Program-made: the position numbers and the translations under genes
The notes under the pieces: model-generated
What the model saw: only the letters and a program-made list of their open reading frames with translations
Databases searched by the model: none
What the model was told of the DNA's origin: nothing
In this document: positions 3,399 to 59,055 of the stretch, piece by piece
How positions within the stretch are numbered: position 1 is the stretch's first letter
How the letters are laid out: each line of letters begins with the position of its first letter
Virus record (IMG/VR): IMGVR_UViG_3300021961_000050
Location: 24,225 to 88,224 of that record
Length of the DNA stretch: 64,000 nt
From: a virus
Reading direction: 5' to 3' (one strand)

Positions 3399-5555
3399 AT
3401 GGCAATCAATCATAGATTAGGTACAAAAGTTAGTAAAAATCTTCGTCGTGAAGAAGCGTCTGCTACACGAATTGAACCATATCCGTACATAGGTATAGTT
3501 AAAAATAATCTTGATCCTTCACGTAGTGGCAGACTACAGGTATGGATTCCTGACCTAGGTGGTGATCCGCAAGATGCTCAAAACTGGCGTACTGTAAGTT
3601 ATGCTAGTCCATTTATGGGTACAACCACACATCCTATTAAGAATAATACTATTCCTAGTAAGTCTAATAAATTTGATACTGTAAGCCATACCTATGGCAT
3701 GTGGATGATACCTCCTGATCTTGACGTTGAAGTCATTGTAATATTTGTAGCAGGTGATCCTACTAGAGGGTATTGGATTGGTTGCGTTAATTCAAATGTT
3801 AGTAAACATATGACTCCCGGGGTTGCCGGCAGTACCAAATATGATATTTCTAATTCTTCGCCTGAAACACAAAAAGCAATTACAGCTCTAGAGCGGGCTA
3901 ATATACAACCACAACCTCCAGTGGTTGAGTTTAATGAGTACAACGAAAACGCATTTAAAAGCCAAGCATTTTATAATAATAAAAAACCCGTACACGAATA
4001 CCAATTTAAAAAATTAAGAGAGCAAGGTCTTGATTGTGATCCTTATAGAGGGGCAACTACCAGCAGTAGTCAACGTGAAACTCCTAGTAATGTTTTTGGT
4101 ATATCAACACCTGGAAGACCCTACAATGATCCTGCAGATGACACAGAATTAGTACAAAAGATTTTAGACGGTAAACTTAACGAAGACTTCTATAGATTTA
4201 ACACTAAAAAAGGCGGACATGTCTTTGTAATGGATGATGGGTCAATAACTGGTGCTGATCAAATGATTAGACTACGCACAGCCAATGGTCATCAAATAAC
4301 CATGCACGACTCAGCAGACATGTTGTATATTGCTCATGGCAGTGGTAACAGTTGGTTAGAAATGACCAGTAGTGGTAGTGTCAATGTTTACAGTAAAGGT
4401 AGCCTAAACATTAGATCTGAAACTAATATAAATCTACAGGCAGATAATAATGTCAACATTGAAGCAAAGAATAAAATAAACATCAGATCAACAAACAAAA
4501 CTCAGATGGATCTTGGAAGTTTTACTATGATAACAGCAGGAGCAATTAATCTTGCATCTAATGGTATAACCAATATCAAAAGCCAACAAGGATTCAACGT
4601 TGATGCTACAGGAGCAATATCTGTTCTAGCAGGTGGCAAACTAGCATTAACAGGTAGTCAAATTTTAGAAAACAGTGGCGGTGAAAAGAAACTTAAAATG
4701 CCTAAACAACTTGTGACTAATAAATTTCCTGATGTAGGTCTGAACAAAGATGTTGGACTATATGTGTCAACTCCTAACAGTTTTGACAGTGTGGTCACTG
4801 CGGCTCCTACACACGAACCATATGGTAGATTCCAACCTACTTGGTCACCAATTGACGCAGGTCGATTTGATGTTTCTGCTTATGCTACTAAAGAGAATTT
4901 AGATAAAACTGTACAGAAATTACCATCAGGTGAGTACACTGGATCAGTTGATGCTGTTAAAGATGCTAAAGGCACAGAAGTTAAAAATGCCGCAGGTGAT
5001 AAACAATTAAGAGTTCAACCTACGTCTAATCAAACATTAGGTCCATTAGAACCTGATGACATGACAGCCTACTACACACAGTTAGGACAGAGTGAAAGCA
5101 GTGGGGACTACACATCAACCAATGAGCTAGGCTATGTTGGTAAGTACCAAATGGGCCATAGTGCTCTAATAGACGCTGGACTAGTAAAATCATCAGTGAC
5201 CAGTAATGCTGATCTTAATAATCCAAATAATTGGTTAGGAAAAGATGGACAACCTGCTAGCCTAAATGAGTTTTTAAATACTCCACAAGCACAGGAAGAT
5301 GCTGTAAAACTTTACACACAGAAAAACTATAATACCTTGTTAAATAATGGTGGAATTACTAAAGAAATGTCAAAAGAAGAGATTGGCGGCATGCTTAGTA
5401 CTGCACACCTATTAGGTGCAACTGGTGCTAAAGATTGGCGTAATACAGGAGCAGGTGCAGATGCTAACGGAACTACAGGCACAGACTACTTCCAACGAGG
5501 TAAGTATGCTGTTAGTGTGTTAGGTCCTAAAGTGCCACAAATTAACGCTGGATAA
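3399..5555 (+). CDS. gp5: Baseplate central spike (gp5-like) with C-terminal lysozyme/lytic transglycosylase-like domain
   Basis: N-terminal OB-fold motif 'GIVKNNLDPSRSGRLQVWIP...EVIVIFVAGD...YWIG', beta-helix repeats in the middle, C-terminal 'QSESSGDY...GYVGKYQMG' muramidase-like motif. Confidence 0.8.
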   Translation: MAINHRLGTKVSKNLRREEASATRIEPYPYIGIVKNNLDPSRSGRLQVWIPDLGGDPQDAQNWRTVSYASPFMGTTTHPIKNNTIPSKSNKFDTVSHTYGMWMIPPDLDVEVIVIFVAGDPTRGYWIGCVNSNVSKHMTPGVAGSTKYDISNSSPETQKAITALERANIQPQPPVVEFNEYNENAFKSQAFYNNKKPVHEYQFKKLREQGLDCDPYRGATTSSSQRETPSNVFGISTPGRPYNDPADDTELVQKILDGKLNEDFYRFNTKKGGHVFVMDDGSITGADQMIRLRTANGHQITMHDSADMLYIAHGSGNSWLEMTSSGSVNVYSKGSLNIRSETNINLQADNNVNIEAKNKINIRSTNKTQMDLGSFTMITAGAINLASNGITNIKSQQGFNVDATGAISVLAGGKLALTGSQILENSGGEKKLKMPKQLVTNKFPDVGLNKDVGLYVSTPNSFDSVVTAAPTHEPYGRFQPTWSPIDAGRFDVSAYATKENLDKTVQKLPSGEYTGSVDAVKDAKGTEVKNAAGDKQLRVQPTSNQTLGPLEPDDMTAYYTQLGQSESSGDYTSTNELGYVGKYQMGHSALIDAGLVKSSVTSNADLNNPNNWLGKDGQPASLNEFLNTPQAQEDAVKLYTQKNYNTLLNNGGITKEMSKEEIGGMLSTAHLLGATGAKDWRNTGAGADANGTTGTDYFQRGKYAVSVLGPKVPQINAG

Positions 5556-51746: not shown

Positions 51747-53004
51747 TTTGTTTTTCTAAACTATAACGAGCAGTAACACCATACGGAGCAACAACATCGT
51801 TAGTTCCGTGGATTACAAACAGTGTATCACAATAGTTTTCGTCACCCCATCCGTCCCAAACATAACCATCAGTAAACATGATAAACAATTTTGGTTGAAT
51901 GTCATTTTCTTTCATAAATTCCCAATTACAGTTAAGTTCAGTACCGCCACCACCTTGAACTTGATAAGTGTCAATATCGTCAATATTGTCTGGAGTAAAA
52001 ATAATGTGACCGTAGACTTCTGTGTCAAATGACCAAACCTGTAGTTTAAAATCATCATATGATTGCATAATGCCTTTAATTTCACTAAGAATGTCGCGTA
52101 GCATATCATCACCCATTGACCCTGAAGCATCAATTGATACACAAACATCAATAGTTTCTGCTAGATCACTGCCAGGAAAAACAGCATCCATATGCCATGC
52201 ACGACGACTTGGACGCATCCAAGTAAAGTCACTTTTAACTTGGCTTTGAACCTGTTGTTGAATTAATTCTCTCCAATTAAGTTGCGGATTAGTTAACTGT
52301 TGAATTAATCGTTTAACTCCACTAGGTAAATTAGTTGCTCCTTGCGCCGCATTTAATACTGCTTCTTTTATTTCATTTCTAATTTCTTTTTTCTCTTCTT
52401 CTGAAAGTTTAGGACGTCCTGAACCTTTACCTTTTTCTTCTTTGCCATCTGCACCTTGATTTTCGTCTTCACTATCGTCGCCATTGAGATGTTCATCTAA
52501 GAGTTGTTTAACAAGATCATCAATATTAATTTTTTCTGCATTTTCATATAAATCATCATAGACCTGTTCAGCTGACCAACCACGATATTTTTCGTCATGT
52601 AAACCTATAGGAATAAATTCACCTATGCGTTGATCTATTAGGTCTTGATTAACACAATAGTCGTCTGCAATATTCCATAAGCGAGGATCACGGTCTCCAC
52701 GACGTCCCATATGATCATAGACACAGTGTAACACTTCATGACCTACAAGAAATTCAAGTTGTTTTTGTGGTAACGTTTTGATAAATTCAGAATTATAATA
52801 AAATTTACGTCCATCAGTTGCGGCAGTTGGGCACCAATCGTCAGCATTTATTAGTTGTAATCTGGTAGCAAGATTGCCAAAGAAAGGTGCTTTGATTAAC
52901 AAAGCCACTCTAGCAGTGATTAGTTTTTCACGACTTTCAGCATCAATGGTGGGATCTGTTTTTGTAACTACCTTAGATTTATCTGCTAGTGTTGTCTGAC
53001 TCAT
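51739..53004 (-). CDS. DUF2201-type metallopeptidase-like / VWA domain protein
   Basis: 'TAATDG', HExxH 'HEVLH', MIDAS 'IDASGSM', 'GGGT', 'FTDG'. Confidence 0.88.
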   Translation of the reverse strand: MSQTTLADKSKVVTKTDPTIDAESREKLITARVALLIKAPFFGNLATRLQLINADDWCPTAATDGRKFYYNSEFIKTLPQKQLEFLVGHEVLHCVYDHMGRRGDRDPRLWNIADDYCVNQDLIDQRIGEFIPIGLHDEKYRGWSAEQVYDDLYENAEKINIDDLVKQLLDEHLNGDDSEDENQGADGKEEKGKGSGRPKLSEEEKKEIRNEIKEAVLNAAQGATNLPSGVKRLIQQLTNPQLNWRELIQQQVQSQVKSDFTWMRPSRRAWHMDAVFPGSDLAETIDVCVSIDASGSMGDDMLRDILSEIKGIMQSYDDFKLQVWSFDTEVYGHIIFTPDNIDDIDTYQVQGGGGTELNCNWEFMKENDIQPKLFIMFTDGYVWDGWGDENYCDTLFVIHGTNDVVAPYGVTARYSLEKQNV

Positions 53005-53036
53005 CTTACCCTTTCATACTCTCTCATTTATAGTTT

Positions 53037-53065
53037 ATTATACAACCAAATTGGTTTTCTGTCAA
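53037..53065 (-). promoter_or_regulatory. Consensus sigma70 promoter
   Basis: TTGACA-17-TATAAT on minus strand upstream of the VWA gene. Confidence 0.8.
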
Positions 53066-53079
53066 CCATTAGTTTGACC

Positions 53080-53087
53080 TATAAATA
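53080..53087 (+). promoter_or_regulatory. T4-like late promoter TATAAATA
   Basis: Exact T4 late consensus, 5 nt before the ATG at 53093. Confidence 0.65.
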
Positions 53088-53092
53088 TTGAT

Positions 53093-54085
53093 ATGTTTAA
53101 ATTTTGTTCAGCACCATGGGATACTATTCAAGTCAGAAGAGATGGTCAAATATCTTCCTGTCTTTGCCCTGCTTGGCACAAACTAGGATGGGAATTTGGT
53201 AATATCAGTGAAACTCCTCTAGAAACAGCATTTAATCAAGGTAATTTTATTGAAATGCGTAACAGTGTTATAGACCAAACCTTTCGTCATTGTGGTTCAA
53301 ATTGTTATAAACTCTATGAATTAGAGCAGGTAAAAACATTAGATCATTTAAACAGTTTTCCAAAACTACCAACGCAGATTAATTTAGGTATTGATCCAAA
53401 CTGTAATCTTGAATGCCGAAGTTGTCGTAATGAAAGAACATATACTAAAGAGGTAGATCCGCAAGCAGATAAAATTTTAAATAATCTCATTACTACCTAT
53501 AACAATTTCCCACACAAGGTAAAAATCTATGCTGATGCGGTAGGAGATATCTTTGCCAGTCAAGCATACAAAAAGTTTTTAAACAGATCTGATCTTCCTG
53601 ATTGCTTTGAGTTTTGTATACAGACCAATGGTAATCTCATAACAAAAAATAAAGAGCTATTGAATAAAATACATCAACAAATTGACGTAGTTATCATCAG
53701 TTTTGATGCGGCCACAGACAAAACATATAAAAAAGTTAGAGGTGGAAAATTTCAACAGGTCATTGAAGGTGTAAAATTTTTAACCTCTCTAGGGGTTAAG
53801 GTTCAAACACAATTTGTTGTACAACAGTCTAACTATTTAGAAATACCAGACTATATCAAATTAGCAAAATTTTTAAACGTTGATCAGGTTGGATTATATG
53901 CAATGACCAGATGGAGCCACATGGATCACAATTGGTGGAAAAGAAATCGCATATTCAATCATCCAAATACTGATTTTAATTTCATTGCTGATATTTTAGT
54001 CAAACATAAAGATGATCAACAACTAGCACTATGCGGTAATCTCAAAGAATTTTTACAAGAAACACTGAAAGAAAGGGGCCTGTAA
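53093..54085 (+). CDS. Radical SAM enzyme with N-terminal SPASM/Twitch-like domain
   Basis: 'CSAPW...DGQISSC', CNLECRSC, 'QTNG', 'SFDAA...YKKVRGG'. Confidence 0.88.
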   Translation: MFKFCSAPWDTIQVRRDGQISSCLCPAWHKLGWEFGNISETPLETAFNQGNFIEMRNSVIDQTFRHCGSNCYKLYELEQVKTLDHLNSFPKLPTQINLGIDPNCNLECRSCRNERTYTKEVDPQADKILNNLITTYNNFPHKVKIYADAVGDIFASQAYKKFLNRSDLPDCFEFCIQTNGNLITKNKELLNKIHQQIDVVIISFDAATDKTYKKVRGGKFQQVIEGVKFLTSLGVKVQTQFVVQQSNYLEIPDYIKLAKFLNVDQVGLYAMTRWSHMDHNWWKRNRIFNHPNTDFNFIADILVKHKDDQQLALCGNLKEFLQETLKERGL

Positions 54086-54092
54086 GCCCCTT
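54073..54092. terminator. Hairpin between convergent genes (probable bidirectional terminator)
   Basis: AAGGGGC-CTGTAA-GCCCCTT stem-loop; purine run upstream gives a U-rich tail on the minus strand. Confidence 0.6.
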
Positions 54093-54095
54093 GTT

Positions 54096-55193
54096 CTAGT
54101 TCAATGACGCTACTACGTATTTTCCAAACTTTTTATGGAACTCATCAAAGTTTTTAAGTTTGTTTGGTACCAATGGAAGTTTGTAGGTAGTTAGTGCTAA
54201 TTTTACACCCATAACAGTAACTTCTGTAGTAAAGTTATCCATCATAAAACGAAAAAAGTGATCTGCCATGGCATGCCATTCATTAGTACCACTGCTACCT
54301 AATTTTTCGTGTGCTTCTTTGAGTTCATAGCACATACTAACAGTTAGCGAGTACATAGCACTGATTTCAGATGTTTCTAATTTACTAACCTTACCAGAAA
54401 GAATATCACTTGGGTTGGGCATCTTGTTGGCAATTTTACGATGAGCCATAAATTTAACAGCAAGTCCTTCACCTACTGTACCAGAAACAAGATCAGTAAC
54501 AGTATCATTAGTAAGATCATCATCTAATAAATCACTTACAAATGTCCATGAACGAGGAGTAGCAAATGATCTACTAATACTCTTAGGATCAAAATCATAT
54601 AAATCTTGTTTACTAAAGTTCAAATAGCCAACTACATCTTTATTAATTTTATTCTCCGCGGCCCATTCTAACCATGACTCAAAATCTACACGCATTTCTA
54701 AATGAACAAAACGATTAGCCAATGGAGCAGGCATTCTATAGGTAACACCTTTGTCACTTTCTCTGTTACCAGCCGCCACTATTACTACATTGTCTGGAAG
54801 AACATACTTACCAATACGTCTATTTAAAACTAACTGATAGGCCGCGGCCTGTACGCTAGGAGCCGCTGAATTCATCTCATCTAAGAATAAAACAATAATT
54901 GGATATTGTTTAGACATAGATTCATCAGGCAAATCAATTGGAGCCGCCCAATCCATAACACCTAGATCCTTGTTGTAAAACGGAATACCACGAATGTCTG
55001 TTGGATCCATCTGTGCTAGACGTAAGTCAATAATATGACCTTTCATCTCTTTAGCAATACCTGCCACTAATTCTGATTTACCAATGCCTGGAGGACCCCA
55101 TAAAAATACAGGACGTTTACGATCAAAACAACGAATAATTGATGTTCTTGCTTCTTTTGCTGTTACAGTGCGATTTTCTGTAATGTTGCTCAT
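54096..55193 (-). CDS. MoxR-like AAA+ ATPase
   Basis: Walker A 'GPPGIGKS', Walker B 'LFLDE', 'AAGNR', 'PLANRF', 'TPRSW'; track start 55205. Confidence 0.9.
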   Translation of the reverse strand: MSNITENRTVTAKEARTSIIRCFDRKRPVFLWGPPGIGKSELVAGIAKEMKGHIIDLRLAQMDPTDIRGIPFYNKDLGVMDWAAPIDLPDESMSKQYPIIVLFLDEMNSAAPSVQAAAYQLVLNRRIGKYVLPDNVVIVAAGNRESDKGVTYRMPAPLANRFVHLEMRVDFESWLEWAAENKINKDVVGYLNFSKQDLYDFDPKSISRSFATPRSWTFVSDLLDDDLTNDTVTDLVSGTVGEGLAVKFMAHRKIANKMPNPSDILSGKVSKLETSEISAMYSLTVSMCYELKEAHEKLGSSGTNEWHAMADHFFRFMMDNFTTEVTVMGVKLALTTYKLPLVPNKLKNFDEFHKKFGKYVVASLN

Positions 55194-55225
55194 GTCTAAC
55201 TCCAATCCTCTACATTAAAAACTAT

Positions 55226-55254
55226 ATTATAGACTCAAACCGTTGGTTTGTCAA
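55226..55254 (-). promoter_or_regulatory. Consensus sigma70 promoter with GAGTC extension
   Basis: TTGACA-17-TATAAT; GAGTCTATAAT. Confidence 0.8.
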
Positions 55255-55256
55255 GT

Positions 55257-55412
55257 TTAACCAATTTTACGGCGAACACAAAGATTTTTAATAAATTTTT
55301 TAATAAAAAATTTTGTTTGAACGTACAATACCTGTGGAATTCCAAATTTGAAAGCCCATAACAAGTCCATTATAATAGCACCAATTACCAGTCCTAGAAA
55401 AAAATTAAACAT
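55257..55412 (-). CDS. Small membrane protein (51 aa)
   Basis: AAGGAG RBS; MFNFFLGLVIGAIIMDLLWAFKFG... hydrophobic N-terminus, basic tail. Confidence 0.65.
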   Translation of the reverse strand: MFNFFLGLVIGAIIMDLLWAFKFGIPQVLYVQTKFFIKKFIKNLCVRRKIG

Positions 55413-55436
55413 ATCTATCTCCTTATTATTAATTAC

Positions 55437-55465
55437 ATTATAGACTCATTTAACCAAAATGTCAA
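55437..55465 (-). promoter_or_regulatory. Consensus sigma70 promoter with GAGTC extension
   Basis: TTGACA-17-TATAAT; GAGTCTATAAT. Confidence 0.8.
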
Positions 55466-55683
55466 CCAAAATATTGAACTAACAAATATGTCATTAGAAA
55501 CATGATAGCAGTAAAGGTCACAATCCTAATAGCATCAGTAAATCGTGCTAGTTCTTGTGCATGCCTTTGGACGTCATCAATCTTAACAGCTAATACATCA
55601 ACTTTACCTCTAAGTTTAGTCATATCACTGCCTAGTTCTTGCCATTGACGGTTTGTTCCAACGTTTTTTACTTGTTCTTTCAT
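55462..55683 (-). CDS. Small protein, coiled coil plus C-terminal TM helix
   Basis: AAGGAG RBS; 'IVTFTAIMFLMTYLLV' TM segment. Confidence 0.65.
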   Translation of the reverse strand: MKEQVKNVGTNRQWQELGSDMTKLRGKVDVLAVKIDDVQRHAQELARFTDAIRIVTFTAIMFLMTYLLVQYFG

Positions 55684-55718
55684 AAAGTTCTCCTTGAAAT
55701 TATTGTAATTATGATATA

Positions 55719-55747
55719 ATTATAGCATATCTTGTGGTAGATGTCAA
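55719..55747 (-). promoter_or_regulatory. Consensus sigma70 promoter
   Basis: TTGACA-17-TATAAT. Confidence 0.8.
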
Positions 55748-55797
55748 GAATATTTTATAAAAACCACTAGATGTTGTATATTTTCTTTACACTAGAC

Positions 55798-55831
55798 AAA
55801 AAAATACCTCAGGTTCGCGTCTGAGGTATTT
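55798..55831 (-). terminator. Rho-independent terminator
   Basis: 11-bp stem AAATACCTCAG/CTGAGGTATTT ending in a run of 7 U on the minus strand. Confidence 0.8.
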
Positions 55832-55959
55832 AAGATTTTTATGAATGCCCAGTTTAAGTTATAGACAGTAAACTGGGACCGTAAAGTTGTCTGCGTCAAC
55901 TGCGTTTTTTTAGAGTGGACGCCACCGCAACGGAGCTCTACCACTTACCTTACTAACTA
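55798..55959 (-). ncRNA. Candidate structured small RNA (~160 nt)
   Basis: Bounded by a perfect promoter and a terminator; GC-richer than flanks; several hairpins and a possible H-type pseudoknot; no ATG-initiated ORF. Confidence 0.55.
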
Positions 55960-55965
55960 AAAACT

Positions 55966-55994
55966 ATTATAGACTCTTTTGATTAATTTGTCAA
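55966..55994 (-). promoter_or_regulatory. Consensus sigma70 promoter with GAGTC extension
   Basis: TTGACA-17-TATAAT; GAGTCTATAAT. Confidence 0.8.
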
Positions 55995-56981
55995 CCATTT
56001 TTTTTTAAAAACTTGTACACTCCTAGTTTCAAAATTAAAGTTCTTTTCACTAAAATTAGCACGTACAAACCAATCAAAATAATCTATTTTAGTTCTAACA
56101 TAGCCCATTGATTCTAAAATTAATTTAAACCATGATGGATTTGGAAATCCAACAGGTATTATATCTAATCCTTTAAAATGTCCGTCAAAATTTGAATCAT
56201 CTTTTTCATGATTCCAAAAGATTAAAGATTTTTCACTTTTAGTAATATCAGTTATTTCTGCAGTTTCAATAATAATATTTTTTGGACCTGCTTGCGTAAT
56301 TGACTCTAAAATTTCATAGTGGTCGTGTACGTGATACATTATTCCACTTAATAAAACAGTGTCTTTATCTAAGGTTAATTTAGTATTATTTTGATAGTCA
56401 TGTATGTCACTATAGATGCAATTAAATTTGTTTTCTAAATTAAATGCGTTGGCACTTTTATTTGCTATCTCTATATTATTTTTTCTAACGTTAGTTGTAA
56501 TAACTTCAGATGCATTATTTTCTAAACAGATAAAAGCTAAAAATCCACAGTGTCCAGCAAAATCAATAATTTTTTTATTAGATATAATGTCTAAATTATC
56601 TAAGACGATCTTTTGATATCTAACTAAATCATGTATAGAATAATCAAATTGATTAGGTTGAAAATTGTTGTAATCAATATCTAACCATTGGGTTGGAGAA
56701 AATTTGTGAATGTTGATACATTCTTCTTGTATTTCTTTAGGAAGCAGATTAAATTCATTGGGACTATTACAATTTGGCCAATTCTCTCCACGTATAAGAT
56801 TATAAGAATCTTGCCAACTTTTTAAAAAATCAGGCATCAGTGATGATTGGCTAACAGTCCATAGATATTCATTGTAAAGATATTTTTTACTACTGGGAAG
56901 TTTTGATTTAATGTTAGTTATTTCTTCGTCAGAAATACCGTAATGATTTTTTAAATATTTTTGAGCTTCTTCAAAAAACAT
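55983..56981 (-). CDS. Class I SAM-dependent methyltransferase (CmoB-like) with N-terminal extra domain
   Basis: 'IIDFAGHCG' motif I variant, 'LSGIMYHV', 'IIETA'. Confidence 0.7.
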   Translation of the reverse strand: MFFEEAQKYLKNHYGISDEEITNIKSKLPSSKKYLYNEYLWTVSQSSLMPDFLKSWQDSYNLIRGENWPNCNSPNEFNLLPKEIQEECINIHKFSPTQWLDIDYNNFQPNQFDYSIHDLVRYQKIVLDNLDIISNKKIIDFAGHCGFLAFICLENNASEVITTNVRKNNIEIANKSANAFNLENKFNCIYSDIHDYQNNTKLTLDKDTVLLSGIMYHVHDHYEILESITQAGPKNIIIETAEITDITKSEKSLIFWNHEKDDSNFDGHFKGLDIIPVGFPNPSWFKLILESMGYVRTKIDYFDWFVRANFSEKNFNFETRSVQVFKKKWLTN

Positions 56982-56982
56982 T

Positions 56983-57333
56983 TTAAAGTTTATATTTTAC
57001 ACGATACCATACGCATTCTTTGGTATCAATCTTGTCTGGATATAAACACCAATGTGGATCTACACAGGTTTTAGGATTAGTACCATTGGCTACGCAGGCT
57101 AGTTGCTGTTCTTTCTCTTTGTTGACCTTTGCTTCAAACTTCTGTCTAATTTTGAGCCATTCAGCATATTCCTCAAAGGTCAGCGTTTCTGCCACTATCT
57201 GCTCTAAGGGAGTTTGGTCTCGTTGATCAACCAATTTTTTAACAGTGTCCTCAATACTCCATGCTATGGATATCATTGACAGTATTAACCATAATATGGC
57301 CGCAATTAATAAACCTATATTTACTTTTTTCAT
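56983..57333 (-). CDS. Membrane-anchored protein with Cys-rich C-terminus
   Basis: N-terminal TM helix, helical linker, four Cys. Confidence 0.6.
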   Translation of the reverse strand: MKKVNIGLLIAAILWLILSMISIAWSIEDTVKKLVDQRDQTPLEQIVAETLTFEEYAEWLKIRQKFEAKVNKEKEQQLACVANGTNPKTCVDPHWCLYPDKIDTKECVWYRVKYKL

Positions 57334-57339
57334 AATAAT

Positions 57340-57368
57340 ATTATACAGTTATTTGTCCTGATTGTCAA
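57340..57368 (-). promoter_or_regulatory. Consensus sigma70 promoter (predicted leaderless transcript)
   Basis: TTGACA-17-TATAAT; ATG at 57333 begins 7 nt after -10. Confidence 0.75.
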
Positions 57369-57741
57369 GATATTGTTGTAAATCATTTCCGTGTAATCCT
57401 ATCATCATAGCCTCAACTTCACCATAGACAATTATACTTTGAGCATTTATAATGTAGTACGGTGAGGTAAAATATCGTTCAAGCTGAACAAAGGTTTTGG
57501 GTTTGTATTTTTCTGTTAGTTTAAACCTAAAAGTAGGCATGTCAGTCTTAGACAACAAATTGTGCCCAGTACTGGTCAGTCTAAGACTGTTTGGATTAAT
57601 TGGATTATGCCACCAAGTTGCTGGATTGAATAGTTTATTATAGGTTAACCCCTCTTCAGGGTTTCTGATAAAGGGGTTAAGATCATATTCATTGAATTTT
57701 TTCTGCCAGACACTCTGTGGTGAATTAGCAGTTCTAACCAT
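57349..57741 (-). CDS. Hypothetical protein
   Basis: 130-aa ORF in co-oriented run. Confidence 0.6.
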   Translation of the reverse strand: MVRTANSPQSVWQKKFNEYDLNPFIRNPEEGLTYNKLFNPATWWHNPINPNSLRLTSTGHNLLSKTDMPTFRFKLTEKYKPKTFVQLERYFTSPYYIINAQSIIVYGEVEAMMIGLHGNDLQQYLDNQDK

Positions 57742-57742
57742 G

Positions 57743-58015
57743 TTATTGGTCTTTCTGAATACCTGCCAGTGACCCTAAATCTTCTGCAGTAGTTGTTTGG
57801 GCAATTTGCTCATAATTTTGAAATAGGCCTTCGCCTGTTGCTGAAATATTTTCAATTCTATTGTCAATTTTAGCAACTTCTACGTCAGGAGCAGAAGGTG
57901 TAGGTACTGGTGCTTCGGGTTGTGCTGTATCTGCAATTACATTATCAACTTGAGGATCATTCGCATCAAGGTCTTTCATTTTTTGCATTAGTGTATAAAA
58001 TTGGTCATCTGCCAT
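57743..58015 (-). CDS. Hypothetical acidic protein
   Basis: AAGGAG RBS, 90 aa. Confidence 0.6.
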   Translation of the reverse strand: MADDQFYTLMQKMKDLDANDPQVDNVIADTAQPEAPVPTPSAPDVEVAKIDNRIENISATGEGLFQNYEQIAQTTTAEDLGSLAGIQKDQ

Positions 58016-58025
58016 TTTTATCTCC

Positions 58026-58313
58026 TTATGGGTAAATTGTGTCGCCTTGTTTAAGTAAGACCACAGTAAATTGGTCTGTTTTAAACAGCGAGTTTAATTT
58101 TTTTGCTAAATTAATAGCATGTCCTGGATTTGAAAAACTAACCTTTTTGTATTTAGGTCCAGGATAACTAACCAAGACATTTTGAGTCTTAAGGTTAATA
58201 GGTTGATTGTCAAAAAACACCGCCCAAATTCCTTCACTGTCTAAAATTTGGTCACTTTTGTAAGTGTTTTTATTGACATGTTCTAATAAAATCTTTGGTT
58301 TAGGTCTACTCAT
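58026..58313 (-). CDS. Hypothetical protein
   Basis: 95-aa ORF, AAGGA RBS, upstream CATAAATA late motif (58342-58349). Confidence 0.65.
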   Translation of the reverse strand: MSRPKPKILLEHVNKNTYKSDQILDSEGIWAVFFDNQPINLKTQNVLVSYPGPKYKKVSFSNPGHAINLAKKLNSLFKTDQFTVVLLKQGDTIYP

Positions 58314-58369
58314 AAAATAATATGTTCCTTCTACTACATATTATTTATGCCAATTATCTGAGTAGTTTA

Positions 58370-58585
58370 TTAAAAATTTCCACCATCAAAGTCTAAACTG
58401 TCTACGTCTGCGGGTGTCTCTTTAACTTCTGTGAGGCCTGCAATTTTAGATAATAGATCAAAGATATCATTGTGTAGATTACGTGCTTCTAACGCTGTTA
58501 ATGTGATATCTTTAGCATTGGTTTGGTTCATGACCTTAACCTTGTTGTTAAAACTTTTAAGATGTAATGTAAGTTGTGATTCCAT
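58370..58585 (-). CDS. Hypothetical protein
   Basis: GGAGG RBS, TAATG coupling. Confidence 0.6.
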   Translation of the reverse strand: MESQLTLHLKSFNNKVKVMNQTNAKDITLTALEARNLHNDIFDLLSKIAGLTEVKETPADVDSLDFDGGNF

Positions 58586-59055
58586 TAGTGACCTCCATTG
58601 GCCATGCGAATTTGATGTTGCATTTCTTCTTTAGAATGAAATGGTCCTTGGTAAGGATATCTATTAAGCGTAATCAGTTTAGGGCAATAACTTTTAACCC
58701 ACCCATTGTTAAACTTAACTATATAGTATCCAGCACAGAAAAAACTTTTTGATTTGCGACCTTTAGTGAAGATGGGTAGTTTGTGCTTGACATCCCACAG
58801 AATATTTTGTGCATTATAATCACATGGATAACCATAGACACTGTGGGCTTCACTGATCTGTTTAACAGGAACCTTTTTATCAACAATAATATTGTATCTA
58901 TCTTTTAACAGTTTAAGACTGGTAAATTTTTCTCTTTGATTATTGTGAACTAAGGTAAATCCAACTGAGTTGGCCAGTATAGTGCCAACCTTTTTACCAT
59001 CTTCCTCAACAATCCAACATTTATTTTTAATTATAGATTTAGCAAGTAGTGTCAT
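58585..59055 (-). CDS. Hypothetical protein
   Basis: 156-aa ORF, ATGA overlap. Confidence 0.65.
   Translation of the reverse strand: MTLLAKSIIKNKCWIVEEDGKKVGTILANSVGFTLVHNNQREKFTSLKLLKDRYNIIVDKKVPVKQISEAHSVYGYPCDYNAQNILWDVKHKLPIFTKGRKSKSFFCAGYYIVKFNNGWVKSYCPKLITLNRYPYQGPFHSKEEMQHQIRMANGGH

What the first reader, a model, noticed from the sequence alone, without database searches (positions are those of the whole stretch)
55798..55994. Stand-alone ~160-nt structured RNA with a perfect promoter and terminator
Seen (minus): TTGACA-17-TATAAT, then UAGAG/CUCUA stem (55940-55936/55915-55911) whose loop UUGCG can pair with CGCAG after an A6 linker (H-type pseudoknot), hairpin AGUUG/CAACU, 9-bp hairpin CCCAGUUUA/UAAACUGGG, possible AGACA/UGUCU long-range pairing, repeated ACGCAG, then a strong terminator. 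Inference: an early, highly expressed phage sRNA (e.g. antitoxin mimic, protein sponge or anti-defence RNA) or an attenuator for the downstream small genes. A GTG-initiated 50-codon frame crosses it but has a poorly spaced RBS and runs through the terminator.
Basis: partly seen in the sequence, partly recalled or inferred. Interest (0 to 1): 0.7.

Follow-up and report, generated by a model that had tools for sequence, protein, structure and literature searches.

The report
Mobile small non-coding RNA gene in jumbo phage
A short stretch between two early genes of an uncultured giant phage looks like a real small non-coding RNA gene with its own promoter and terminator, because related phages keep its hairpins but break its reading frame; what the RNA does is still unknown.

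Summary
On the minus strand a perfect TTGACA-17-TATAAT promoter (55994-55966) is followed by about 160 nt with no AUG, then an 11-bp terminator with U7 (55831-55798). Rfam and ARAGORN find nothing. Pattern scans of IMG/VR found the full unit in three contigs (L095, L096, L097, one sequence variant, two different upstream genes). They found its 46-nt core in L014, where it is the 5' leader of a small membrane-protein gene.

Window versus L096: the RNA body is 107/112 identical, while third codon positions of flanking genes are 48-56% identical. The 9-bp hairpin has one compensatory change (C-G to U-A) and the terminator has two. Those same changes put two TAG stops into the 50-codon GTG frame, and the SD-like leader is missing.

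Only the 9-bp hairpin and the terminator fold better than shuffles. The 5' stem and pseudoknot do not. The unit lies in a variable, cassette-shuffled early region similar to T4 PeSL regions, and is rare: 1 of 24 relatives' full records searched.

Expression, targets and host are unknown. Best reading: an accessory, laterally exchanged early phage sRNA acting in trans. This is a new member of a known kind. The scan had not found this RNA on other DNA.

The parts
55966..55994 (-). Perfect sigma-70-type promoter TTGACA-17-TATAAT. The -35 box lies inside the last codons of the upstream 332-aa methyltransferase-like gene (stop at 55983).
   Evidence: The promoter is conserved in L095, L096 and L097, including the shared GAGTCTATAAT.
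55798..55959 (-). Predicted transcript of about 160 nt (start inferred about 7 nt after the -10 box, end in the U tract). It contains no AUG.
   Evidence: Start and end are inferred from consensus elements and were not measured.
55911..55946 (-). G+C-rich 5' domain (58% G+C in a roughly 35% G+C phage). It can form AGUGG/CCACU or UAGAG/CUCUA plus an inner GC hairpin. It is present in the window and in L095-L097, and absent from L014.
   Evidence: It folds no better than shuffles (z = +0.29). Its two substitutions versus L096 give G.U or fall in unpaired positions.
55881..55910 (-). A7 tract, two ACGCAG copies and ACAACUUUAC. This is the long, mostly unpaired stretch and the candidate seed or protein-binding region.
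   Evidence: Identical in the window and L096. ACAACUUUAC is also identical in L014.
55846..55891 (-). 46-nt conserved core: a 13-nt single-stranded GACAACUUUACGG plus the 9-bp hairpin and GGGCA.
   Evidence: 43/46 identical to L014, where the third codon positions of the ATPase gene are only 52% identical. P is about 1e-9. The model built on it (R1) finds only the window and L014 among 94 sources.
55848..55877 (-). 9-bp hairpin H2 with a 12-nt loop.
   Evidence: I5. z = -3.3. C-G becomes U-A in L096, a compensatory change. C-G becomes U.G in metagenome variants. A-U becomes A.C in L014, which is one broken pair.
55832..55847 (-). A/U-rich spacer between the hairpin and the terminator.
   Evidence: AUUCAUAAAAAUCU is identical in L096.
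55798..55831 (-). Intrinsic terminator: 11-bp stem, 8-nt loop and U7.
   Evidence: z = -7.5. Two compensatory double changes versus L096 (A-U to C-G and U-A to C-G), read in each sequence's own minimum-energy register. One search's alignment counts one of them.
55792..55944 (-). GTG-initiated 50-codon frame. It is rejected as a gene.
   Evidence: No homologue was found and the frame itself is not in the protein collection. There are two in-frame TAG codons in L095-L097 and only 19 codons in L014. The stop codon lies beyond the U tract.
55719..55747 (-). Next perfect promoter, heading the 73-aa tail-anchored membrane protein gene (55683-55462). It travels with the RNA unit in L096 and L097.

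Best explanation
This is a stand-alone gene for a small non-coding RNA of about 150-160 nt in the early, host-RNA-polymerase-transcribed region of an uncultured jumbo phage of roughly 330 kb. The layout is a consensus sigma-70 promoter, a G+C-rich 5' domain, a long conserved single-stranded stretch (A7, two ACGCAG copies, ACAACUUUAC), a conserved 9-bp hairpin, an A/U-rich spacer, and a strong intrinsic terminator with U7.

Shown: the unit exists. It is not a protein gene. Its sequence and two of its helices are kept in relatives whose neutral sites are saturated. It moves between phages as part of a promoter-bounded cassette.

Inferred: it is made early as a discrete RNA. It acts in trans through the conserved unpaired stretch and hairpin, either by pairing with a host or phage mRNA (with a chaperone such as Hfq binding the A/U-rich site, terminator and U tail) or by titrating an RNA-binding protein.

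The oldest part is the 46-nt core. In L014 this core sits in the 5' leader of a small membrane-protein gene. The free-standing RNA therefore probably arose when a terminator-promoter cassette cut a leader off from its gene, and was then kept for its own sake.
For: Architecture:
- Perfect promoter.
- Terminator z = -7.5 and hairpin z = -3.3.
- No AUG in the 163 nt of the window or the 150 nt of L096.

Not coding:
- The ORF has no homologue and was not even called in the 5.8-billion-protein collection.
- In L095, L096 and L097 the frame has two TAG stops and the SD-like TAAGG leader is deleted.
- All 5 substitutions versus L096 and all 3 versus L014 are at codon positions 1 or 2.
- None of the 15 third positions in the core differs from L014, whereas 48% of ATPase third positions differ.
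- The 3 metagenome variants listed in the body are also non-synonymous.

Selection on the RNA:
- The body is 107/112 identical to L096, against 48-56% identity at third codon positions of gp95, gp130, gp116 and gp73.
- The body is more conserved than the adjacent promoter and leader region (5/112 against 16/113 changes, Fisher p = 0.02).
- All 5 body changes are compensatory, G.U-forming or in unpaired positions.
- There is 1 compensatory pair in the hairpin and 2 in the terminator.

Cassette behaviour:
- The same unit follows three different upstream genes: a methyltransferase-like gene in the window, a gp116 homologue in L096, and an SPPY-motif methylase-like gene in L097 and L095.
- 275 nt are 100% identical between L096 and L097, although their gp130 proteins are 62% identical and third positions 48% identical.
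Against: - There is no expression data. No RNA run was listed.
- Only two independent full-length variants exist (the window, and the single L095/L096/L097 sequence), plus one core variant. Covariation therefore rests on three double changes, two of them in the terminator, which any terminator would need.
- One hairpin pair is broken in L014.
- The 5' half folds no better than shuffles.
- No target was found. The longest complementarity to the phage's own 88 kb is 12 nt, the commonest value among shuffles. Duplexes with four neighbouring leaders lie within the shuffle range.
- High identity could partly reflect recent lateral exchange rather than selection, as the 100% L096/L097 identity shows.
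- The unit is rare. It is absent from 23 of 24 relatives' full records searched, including both complete genomes.
- The host is unknown, so Hfq or any other partner is conjecture.
Confidence: 0.5

Rival explanations
1. Orphaned leader, a by-product of cassette shuffling. The core is simply the old 5' UTR of the small membrane-protein gene, as in L014. Insertion of a terminator-promoter cassette and of the gp73 cassette cut it off. It is still transcribed from its strong promoter but has no function of its own. Its high identity among phages reflects recent lateral exchange at conserved promoters, as with T4 PeSL cassettes.
For: - L014 has the core in the leader of the gp51 homologue with no terminator.
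- A metagenome contig joins 55466 to 55797, so it lacks the gp73 cassette and places the RNA and terminator directly before the gp51 promoter (one contig, 25 letters on the shorter side).
- The stretch between gp130 and the ATPase varies from about 330-440 nt to several kb among relatives.
- L096 and L097 share 275 identical nt in otherwise saturated genomes, with the boundary inside the promoter.
- PeSL cassettes of strong sigma-70 promoters plus stem-loops mediate this kind of shuffling in T4-type phages (PMC2839356: abstract and section 14 read; PMC4122927: abstract read).
Against: - Within one cassette the gp73 gene has diverged to 50% amino-acid identity and 53% third-position identity, while the RNA body stays 95.5% identical and is more conserved than the neighbouring promoter and leader.
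- The compensatory change in the hairpin and the two in the terminator point to maintained structure.
- The G+C-rich 5' domain exists only in the free-standing versions and is conserved there.
Confidence: 0.2
2. Cis-acting RNA element that works on its own transcript or its own polymerase in both contexts. One possibility is a put- or nut-like processive antitermination signal, so that polymerases started at 55994 read through the terminator while those arriving from the upstream operon stop. Another is a protein-binding leader element.
For: - The core lies 40-95 nt downstream of a strong early promoter both in L014 (a leader) and in the window.
- A single-stranded box followed by a hairpin and then a terminator is the lambda nut/tR1 layout (recalled, not tested).
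- The terminator also closes the upstream gp116-methyltransferase operon.
Against: - No antiterminator protein was identified.
- No terminator-like site lies close downstream of the core in L014. The one match of the scan, at 4191-4214 inside an ORF, has no T run.
- Every downstream gene in the window has its own perfect promoter, so read-through is not needed.
- There is no Rfam match.
Confidence: 0.12
3. Riboswitch or attenuator that gates transcription into the 73-aa gene.
For: A structured leader followed by an intrinsic terminator upstream of a gene on the same strand.
Against: - The 73-aa gene has its own perfect promoter and a conserved leader.
- The only antiterminator pairing I could find is lost in L096 (read).
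- There is no Rfam aptamer match.
- A relative lacks the 73-aa cassette yet keeps the RNA and terminator (one contig).
Confidence: 0.05
4. Small protein gene: the 50-codon GTG frame, or a shorter leader peptide such as the 19-codon GTG frame with an AAGGA site in L014.
For: - The frame is open for 50 codons in an A+T-rich region, which I estimate has about a 2-3% chance per frame.
- The GTG lies 22 nt after the -10 box, like the starts of neighbouring genes.
- In L014 a 19-codon frame starts at a GTG with better SD spacing and ends on the SD of the next gene.
Against: - L095, L096 and L097 have two in-frame stops and no SD.
- Frame lengths are 50, 23 and 19 codons.
- There are 0 synonymous changes among 8 fixed differences plus 3 metagenome variants.
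- The stop codon lies after the U tract.
- No homologue was found.
Confidence: 0.03

Closest known systems
Phage- and prophage-encoded small regulatory RNAs (review PMC12197685 and phiKZ dRNA-seq PMC8244752. DicF, IpeX and T4 species 1/2 RNAs are recalled, not checked)
   Same: A short non-coding transcript with its own promoter and an intrinsic terminator inside a phage genome. It has a conserved unpaired stretch next to hairpins, an A/U-rich site and a U tail.
   Different: There is no sequence or Rfam relationship to any described family. It is encoded by a virulent-type jumbo phage in an early cassette region rather than by a prophage. For phiKZ, the paper's conclusion (passage read) says only one predicted sRNA was found and it could not be confirmed by Northern blot. 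No target or chaperone is known here.
PeSL regulatory cassettes of T4-type phages (PMC2839356, PMC4122927)
   Same: Consensus sigma-70 early promoters packed against upstream stop codons, stem-loop terminators, a location in a variable region between conserved genes, and recombination boundaries inside the promoter. In L097 a 21-nt inverted repeat overlaps the -10 box of the next promoter, with the -35 box in its loop. This is one of the PeSL stem-loop placements described in section 14 of PMC2839356.
   Different: PeSLs are promoter-plus-stem-loop motifs that flank ORFs. Here about 115 nt of conserved non-coding sequence with its own hairpin lies between promoter and terminator. The phage is not T4-like. 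Its closest cultured relative by ATPase is Pseudomonas phage PA5oct at 50% amino-acid identity.
sRNAs with a promoter inside the preceding coding sequence that share the operon's terminator (MicL, DapZ; recalled)
   Same: The -35 box lies within the last codons of the upstream gene, and the terminator also serves the upstream operon.
   Different: Nearly all of this RNA lies beyond the upstream stop codon. No processing and no target is known.
Lambda nut / HK022 put antitermination RNAs (recalled)
   Same: A promoter-proximal single-stranded box plus a hairpin, followed by a terminator in an early operon.
   Different: There is no sequence similarity and no partner protein, and downstream genes have their own promoters. 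This was not tested.

Membership tests
Stand-alone bacterial/phage sRNA gene | Own promoter | tested here: met
   12/12 consensus match at 55994-55966, against 0.04 expected per window. It is conserved in L095-L097. Activity was not measured.
Stand-alone bacterial/phage sRNA gene | Intrinsic terminator with a U tail that defines a short transcript | tested here: met
   11-bp stem plus U7, z = -7.5. It is kept by two compensatory double changes in L096.
Stand-alone bacterial/phage sRNA gene | No conserved open reading frame | tested here: met
   Two TAG stops in L095-L097. There are no synonymous changes and no AUG. No protein homologue was found.
Stand-alone bacterial/phage sRNA gene | Sequence and structure conserved beyond neutral expectation | tested here: met
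   107/112 and 43/46 identical, against about 50% at third codon positions. One compensatory pair in hairpin H2. Only 2-3 independent variants were available.
Stand-alone bacterial/phage sRNA gene | Discrete transcript observed | not testable with these tools
   No RNA run was listed among the 24 runs. Only DNA contigs could be laid.
Stand-alone bacterial/phage sRNA gene | Complementary target or bound protein | tested here: inconclusive
   Nothing above shuffles in the phage's own 88 kb or in 4 neighbouring leaders. The host genome is unknown and about 75% of the phage genome is missing.
Any Rfam family (release 15) | Match at the gathering score | tested here: not met
   0 matches in the window. 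The 7 weak matches in 55600-56200 have E = 0.64-9.6 and 13-20 bits, against cut-offs of 43-80.
tRNA / tmRNA | Cloverleaf detected | tested here: not met
   ARAGORN finds 0 genes in the window. Relatives do carry tRNA genes after the methyltransferase homologue.
PeSL-type regulatory cassette region | Repeated consensus sigma-70 promoters with stem-loops in a variable region, with recombination at the cassettes | tested here: met
   6 perfect promoters within 4.3 kb. The gp130-ATPase distance is variable. An identical 275-nt cassette sits in divergent phages, bounded in the promoter. A 21-nt inverted repeat overlaps the next promoter in L097. This describes the setting, not the RNA body itself.
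Small protein gene | Frame, start signal and stop conserved in relatives | tested here: not met
Riboswitch / attenuator | Conserved alternative pairing with the terminator, and a downstream gene that depends on read-through | tested here: not met
   The candidate pairing is lost in L096. The downstream gene has its own perfect promoter.
Type III antitoxin-like (ToxI-type) RNA | Tandem array of repeat units upstream of an endoribonuclease toxin | tested here: not met
   No tandem repeat. The downstream 73-aa protein has only weak matches, to phrog_736 (unknown function) and, below its cut-off, Pfam TolA_bind_tri. The defining features of this family are recalled.

The most novel reading that the evidence does not exclude
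The 46-nt core (a 13-nt single strand plus a 9-bp hairpin) is a portable RNA module that works both as a leader (L014) and as a free, strongly transcribed early RNA. It would be a decoy or sponge for a host or phage RNA-binding protein such as a defence nuclease, a translational repressor or Hfq, or a polymerase-modifying antitermination signal. It spreads among jumbo phages as an 'RNA moron' by recombination at consensus early promoters. That would be a non-coding counterpart of the ORF cassettes shuffled by PeSLs.
Probability: 0.15. Interest if true: 0.7.

Novelty: new member of a known kind. Interest (0 to 1): 0.42.

Why it matters
Small RNAs of virulent and jumbo phages are barely charted. 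For phiKZ, the one predicted sRNA could not be confirmed (PMC8244752, conclusion passage read). Here comparative data alone separate an RNA gene from an overlapping open frame. They also show a non-coding unit being exchanged between divergent phages inside promoter-bounded cassettes. If it is expressed, it gives a defined, short candidate for early host takeover or counter-defence in a widespread group of aquatic ~330-kb phages. It would also extend the PeSL idea of mobile regulatory cassettes beyond T4-type phages and beyond protein-coding cargo.

Tried and rejected
- Rfam at gathering score over the whole window and at E <= 10 on 55600-56200: nothing usable.
- ARAGORN: 0 genes.
- blastn of 55700-56100 against 50,697 phage records: no match.
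- Own record: single copy.
- Protein search with the 50-aa frame: no candidate.
- Relatives through the upstream methyltransferase-like protein: 4 loci in viral contigs and 8 in metagenome contigs, at 30-43% identity. None holds the RNA. A single-protein scan found none.
- Relatives through the ATPase: 80 loci kept of 550. blastn of the unit against 93 loci matched beyond the promoter only in L014.
- The core model R1 over 94 sources gave only the window and L014. The next hits were L079 (E = 0.54), which lies inside an open frame with no hairpin match, and L075/L076 (E = 1.1), a terminator-like hairpin before a promoter. I rejected both.
- Full records of 24 relatives (1 of the 25 asked for was not held): only L014's record has the core.
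- Genome contigs: 0 hits for the core. One 20-mer hit of the 5' domain in a Bryobacteraceae MAG showed no similarity beyond the 20 letters. About one such hit is expected by chance, so I rejected it.
- Target search. A duplexfold of the whole body against all ORF starts gave unrealistically long duplexes and was discarded. Exact complementarity and windowed duplexes with 4 neighbouring leaders plus L097 gp64 were not above shuffles.
- A 12-mer shared with genome position ~2100 lies in a coding region and is chance.
- No tandem repeats.
- No RNA holder was listed among the 24 runs. The four runs laid were DNA contigs only.
- I considered and dropped a PqqA-like reading of the frame, because the Tyr is Pro in L014. 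I also dropped a tRNA remnant (the GGUAGAGC motif only) and a degenerate promoter copy inside the core, because the 8-nt repeat GTCTATAA (D1) is at chance level.
- Supplementary files of the PeSL papers were not opened.

Full report
Setting. The window is bases 24225-88224 of an 88,224-nt IMG/VR virus record that CheckV rates 25% complete. Relatives with the same AAA ATPase include complete genomes of 329 and 337 kb. The closest cultured phage by that ATPase is the Pseudomonas jumbo phage PA5oct, at 50% amino-acid identity. So this is a fragment of an uncultured jumbo phage. DNA runs that hold it come from marine, estuary, lagoon and freshwater metagenomes.

The finding lies on the minus strand in a run of short early cassettes. 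Six of the window's seven perfect TTGACA-17-TATAAT promoters lie between 53037 and 57368 on that strand, against 0.04 expected. The gene order is: gp130, promoter, gp116, a 332-aa methyltransferase-like gene, [promoter, the RNA, terminator], promoter, gp73, promoter, gp51, promoter, AAA ATPase.

Observation. All the listed elements are at the stated coordinates. The promoter's -35 box sits in the last codons of the methyltransferase-like gene. The terminator (55831-55802, 11 pairs, U7) is the only strong terminator-like site on this strand in 53000-59000. It therefore also closes the upstream operon.

By folding energy, the terminator (z = -7.5) and the 9-bp hairpin (z = -3.3) stand out. The 5' domain (z = +0.29) and the body as a whole (z = -0.71) do not. 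The pseudoknot partners are invariant in all homologues, so nothing supports or refutes them.

Known families. There is no Rfam match at gathering score. The seven weak matches are far below their cut-offs. There is no tRNA or tmRNA, no tandem repeat, and no similar DNA in 50,697 phage records.

Finding relatives. The 50-aa frame has no homologue, and the frame itself is not among called proteins. Homologues of the upstream gene are at most 43% identical, and none has the RNA after it.

Exact-pattern scans of IMG/VR with pieces of the RNA were what worked.
- L014 carries the 46-nt core.
- L095, L096 and L097 carry the whole unit. L095 is cut at the contig end.
- The three full copies are identical to each other over 275 nt, so they count as one variant.
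- Among 93 loci, blastn found the RNA beyond the promoter only in L014.
- A covariance model of the core found only the window and L014 in 94 sources.
- Of 24 relatives' full records, only L014's has the core.
The element is therefore rare and accessory.

RNA or protein. Window versus L096:
- The promoter is kept.
- 12 nt of the leader, including the TAAGG that could serve as an SD, are absent.
- The body is 107/112 identical.
- The five substitutions are as follows. C to U turns a C-G into U.G in the inner 5' hairpin. G to A is in an unpaired position. The last two form a C-G to U-A double change in the 9-bp hairpin.
- In the GTG frame all five are non-synonymous, and two create TAG stops.
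- The terminator differs at several positions but keeps a 9-bp G+C-rich stem through two double changes, read in each sequence's own minimum-energy register. One search's MAFFT register counts one.

Versus L014 the core is 43/46 identical. All three changes are at codon positions 1 or 2, none of the 15 third positions has changed, and one hairpin pair becomes A.C.

Three metagenome variants listed in the body are also non-synonymous. They are 55877, 55878 and 55892, seen in contigs of up to three runs. The one at 55877 turns the basal C-G into U.G. A further 78 differences over the 2-kb stretch laid were not shown by the tool.

The UAG stop lies 3 nt past the U tract, so a terminated RNA would have no stop codon. 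There is no AUG in either variant. The protein reading is therefore rejected.

Conservation against neutral drift. Third codon positions of flanking genes are 48-56% identical between the window and L096 or L097, and 52% between the window and L014. That is saturated. Against this, 107/112 and 43/46 are far beyond chance (P about 1e-21 and 1e-9).

The caveat is lateral exchange. L096 and L097 differ strongly in their genes (gp130 62% amino-acid identity, 48% at third positions) yet share an identical 275-nt stretch. It runs from the promoter spacer through the RNA, the terminator and the next promoter into the start of the gp73 homologue. The identity begins inside the promoter. That is recent recombination at a promoter.

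Still, between the window and L096/L097 the gp73 gene of the same cassette is only 50% identical. The RNA body is also significantly better kept than the adjacent promoter and leader (5/112 against 16/113 changes, p = 0.02). Selection on the RNA is the simpler account.

Evolutionary context. The stretch between the conserved gp130 and ATPase genes ranges from about 330-440 nt to several kb in relatives. The RNA unit follows three different genes. One metagenome contig lacks the gp73 cassette (joint 55466/55797; a single contig with a short side, so weak). In L097 a 21-nt inverted repeat overlaps the -10 box of the next promoter, with the -35 box in its loop.

This matches the hyperplastic regions and PeSL cassettes described for T4-type phages: strong sigma-70 promoters plus stem-loops that terminate transcription and mediate modular shuffling (PMC2839356, abstract and section 14 read; PMC4122927, abstract read). 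Earlier notes of this scan on this window and on relatives' windows describe the same promoter cassettes.

In L014 the core lies in the 94-nt leader of the gp51 homologue. A likely history is that a leader was separated from its gene by inserted terminator-promoter cassettes, and that it then gained a G+C-rich 5' domain.

Mechanism. Shown: the unit is non-coding, conserved, structured at two helices, and mobile as a cassette.

Inferred: it gives a discrete early RNA that acts in trans. The 30-nt stretch 55910-55881 is identical in the two full-length variants and mostly unpaired in the predicted folds. It is followed by a hairpin, an A/U-rich spacer and a terminator with U7. That is the usual layout of chaperone-dependent base-pairing sRNAs (layout recalled; PMC4509938 seen only in a search listing).

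I found no target. There is no complementarity above shuffles to the 88 kb available or to four neighbouring leaders. The host is unknown, and three quarters of the phage genome is missing.

The rivals are an orphaned leader without function, a cis-acting antitermination or leader element, an attenuator, and a peptide gene. They are weighed in their own sections.

Verdict. The core of its interpretation (a stand-alone RNA gene, not the ORF) is supported by its own proposed test. The specific roles and the pseudoknot are not supported. This is a new, unnamed member of a known kind, phage-encoded small RNAs, in a PeSL-like cassette region of a non-T4 jumbo phage. Its interest is moderate, limited by thin covariation (two to three independent variants) and the lack of any expression or target data.

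Noticed in passing
L007:2690-2846 and L008:3560-3735: Downstream of the closest homologues of the 332-aa methyltransferase-like gene (about 40% identity) lies a GGGTATAAT -10-like box, a hairpin, a strong AAGGAG site and a short ORF beginning MAWTTPAA, complete at 24 aa in L008 (MAWTTPAATDLRYGFEISMYIANR) and cut by the contig end in L007. It looks like a PqqA-type precursor peptide (E-x3-Y motif, recalled). The window itself is rich in radical SAM/SPASM genes.
   Followed up: no
L002:4000-4156, L003:3880-3956, L011:3446-3521: In 3 of 11 loci with a homologue of the methyltransferase-like gene, tRNA genes follow it directly. L003 holds 17 tRNA genes in 4.8 kb. Several homologues carry weak PF08003 (CmoB-like) hits, which suggests a tRNA-modifying role. 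The window has no tRNA gene.
   Followed up: partly
L097:427-491 (window counterpart about 55727-55775): A 21-nt inverted repeat, 95% complementary, overlaps the -10 box of the promoter of the gp73 homologue, with the -35 box in its loop. It could be a PeSL-like stem-loop or an operator. It is degenerate in the window.
   Followed up: partly
window 55466-55797 and 55118-55959: Metagenome contigs join across these points. One relative lacks the gp73 cassette (330 nt). Another may join the RNA's promoter region to the ATPase gene (840 nt skipped, only 21 letters on one side, so doubtful). An X7 contig diverges on the 5' side of 55891, which suggests a relative with the core but a different 5' domain.
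   Followed up: no
L014:3502-3561: In L014 a 19-codon GTG frame with an AAGGA site crosses the core and ends in a UAG that overlaps the SD of the 45-aa gene. This could be translational coupling or chance. Its three differences from the window are all non-synonymous.
   Followed up: partly
window 55904-55910 and 55798-55804: The conserved A7 tract is complementary to the U7 terminator tail, and RNAalifold pairs them. Both are invariant, so this cannot be tested.
   Followed up: no
window 57333-57368: The perfect promoter at 57368-57340 ends only 7 nt before the ATG of gp116. This suggests a leaderless mRNA or a later start codon. Earlier notes on relatives' windows report similar leaderless arrangements.
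   Followed up: no
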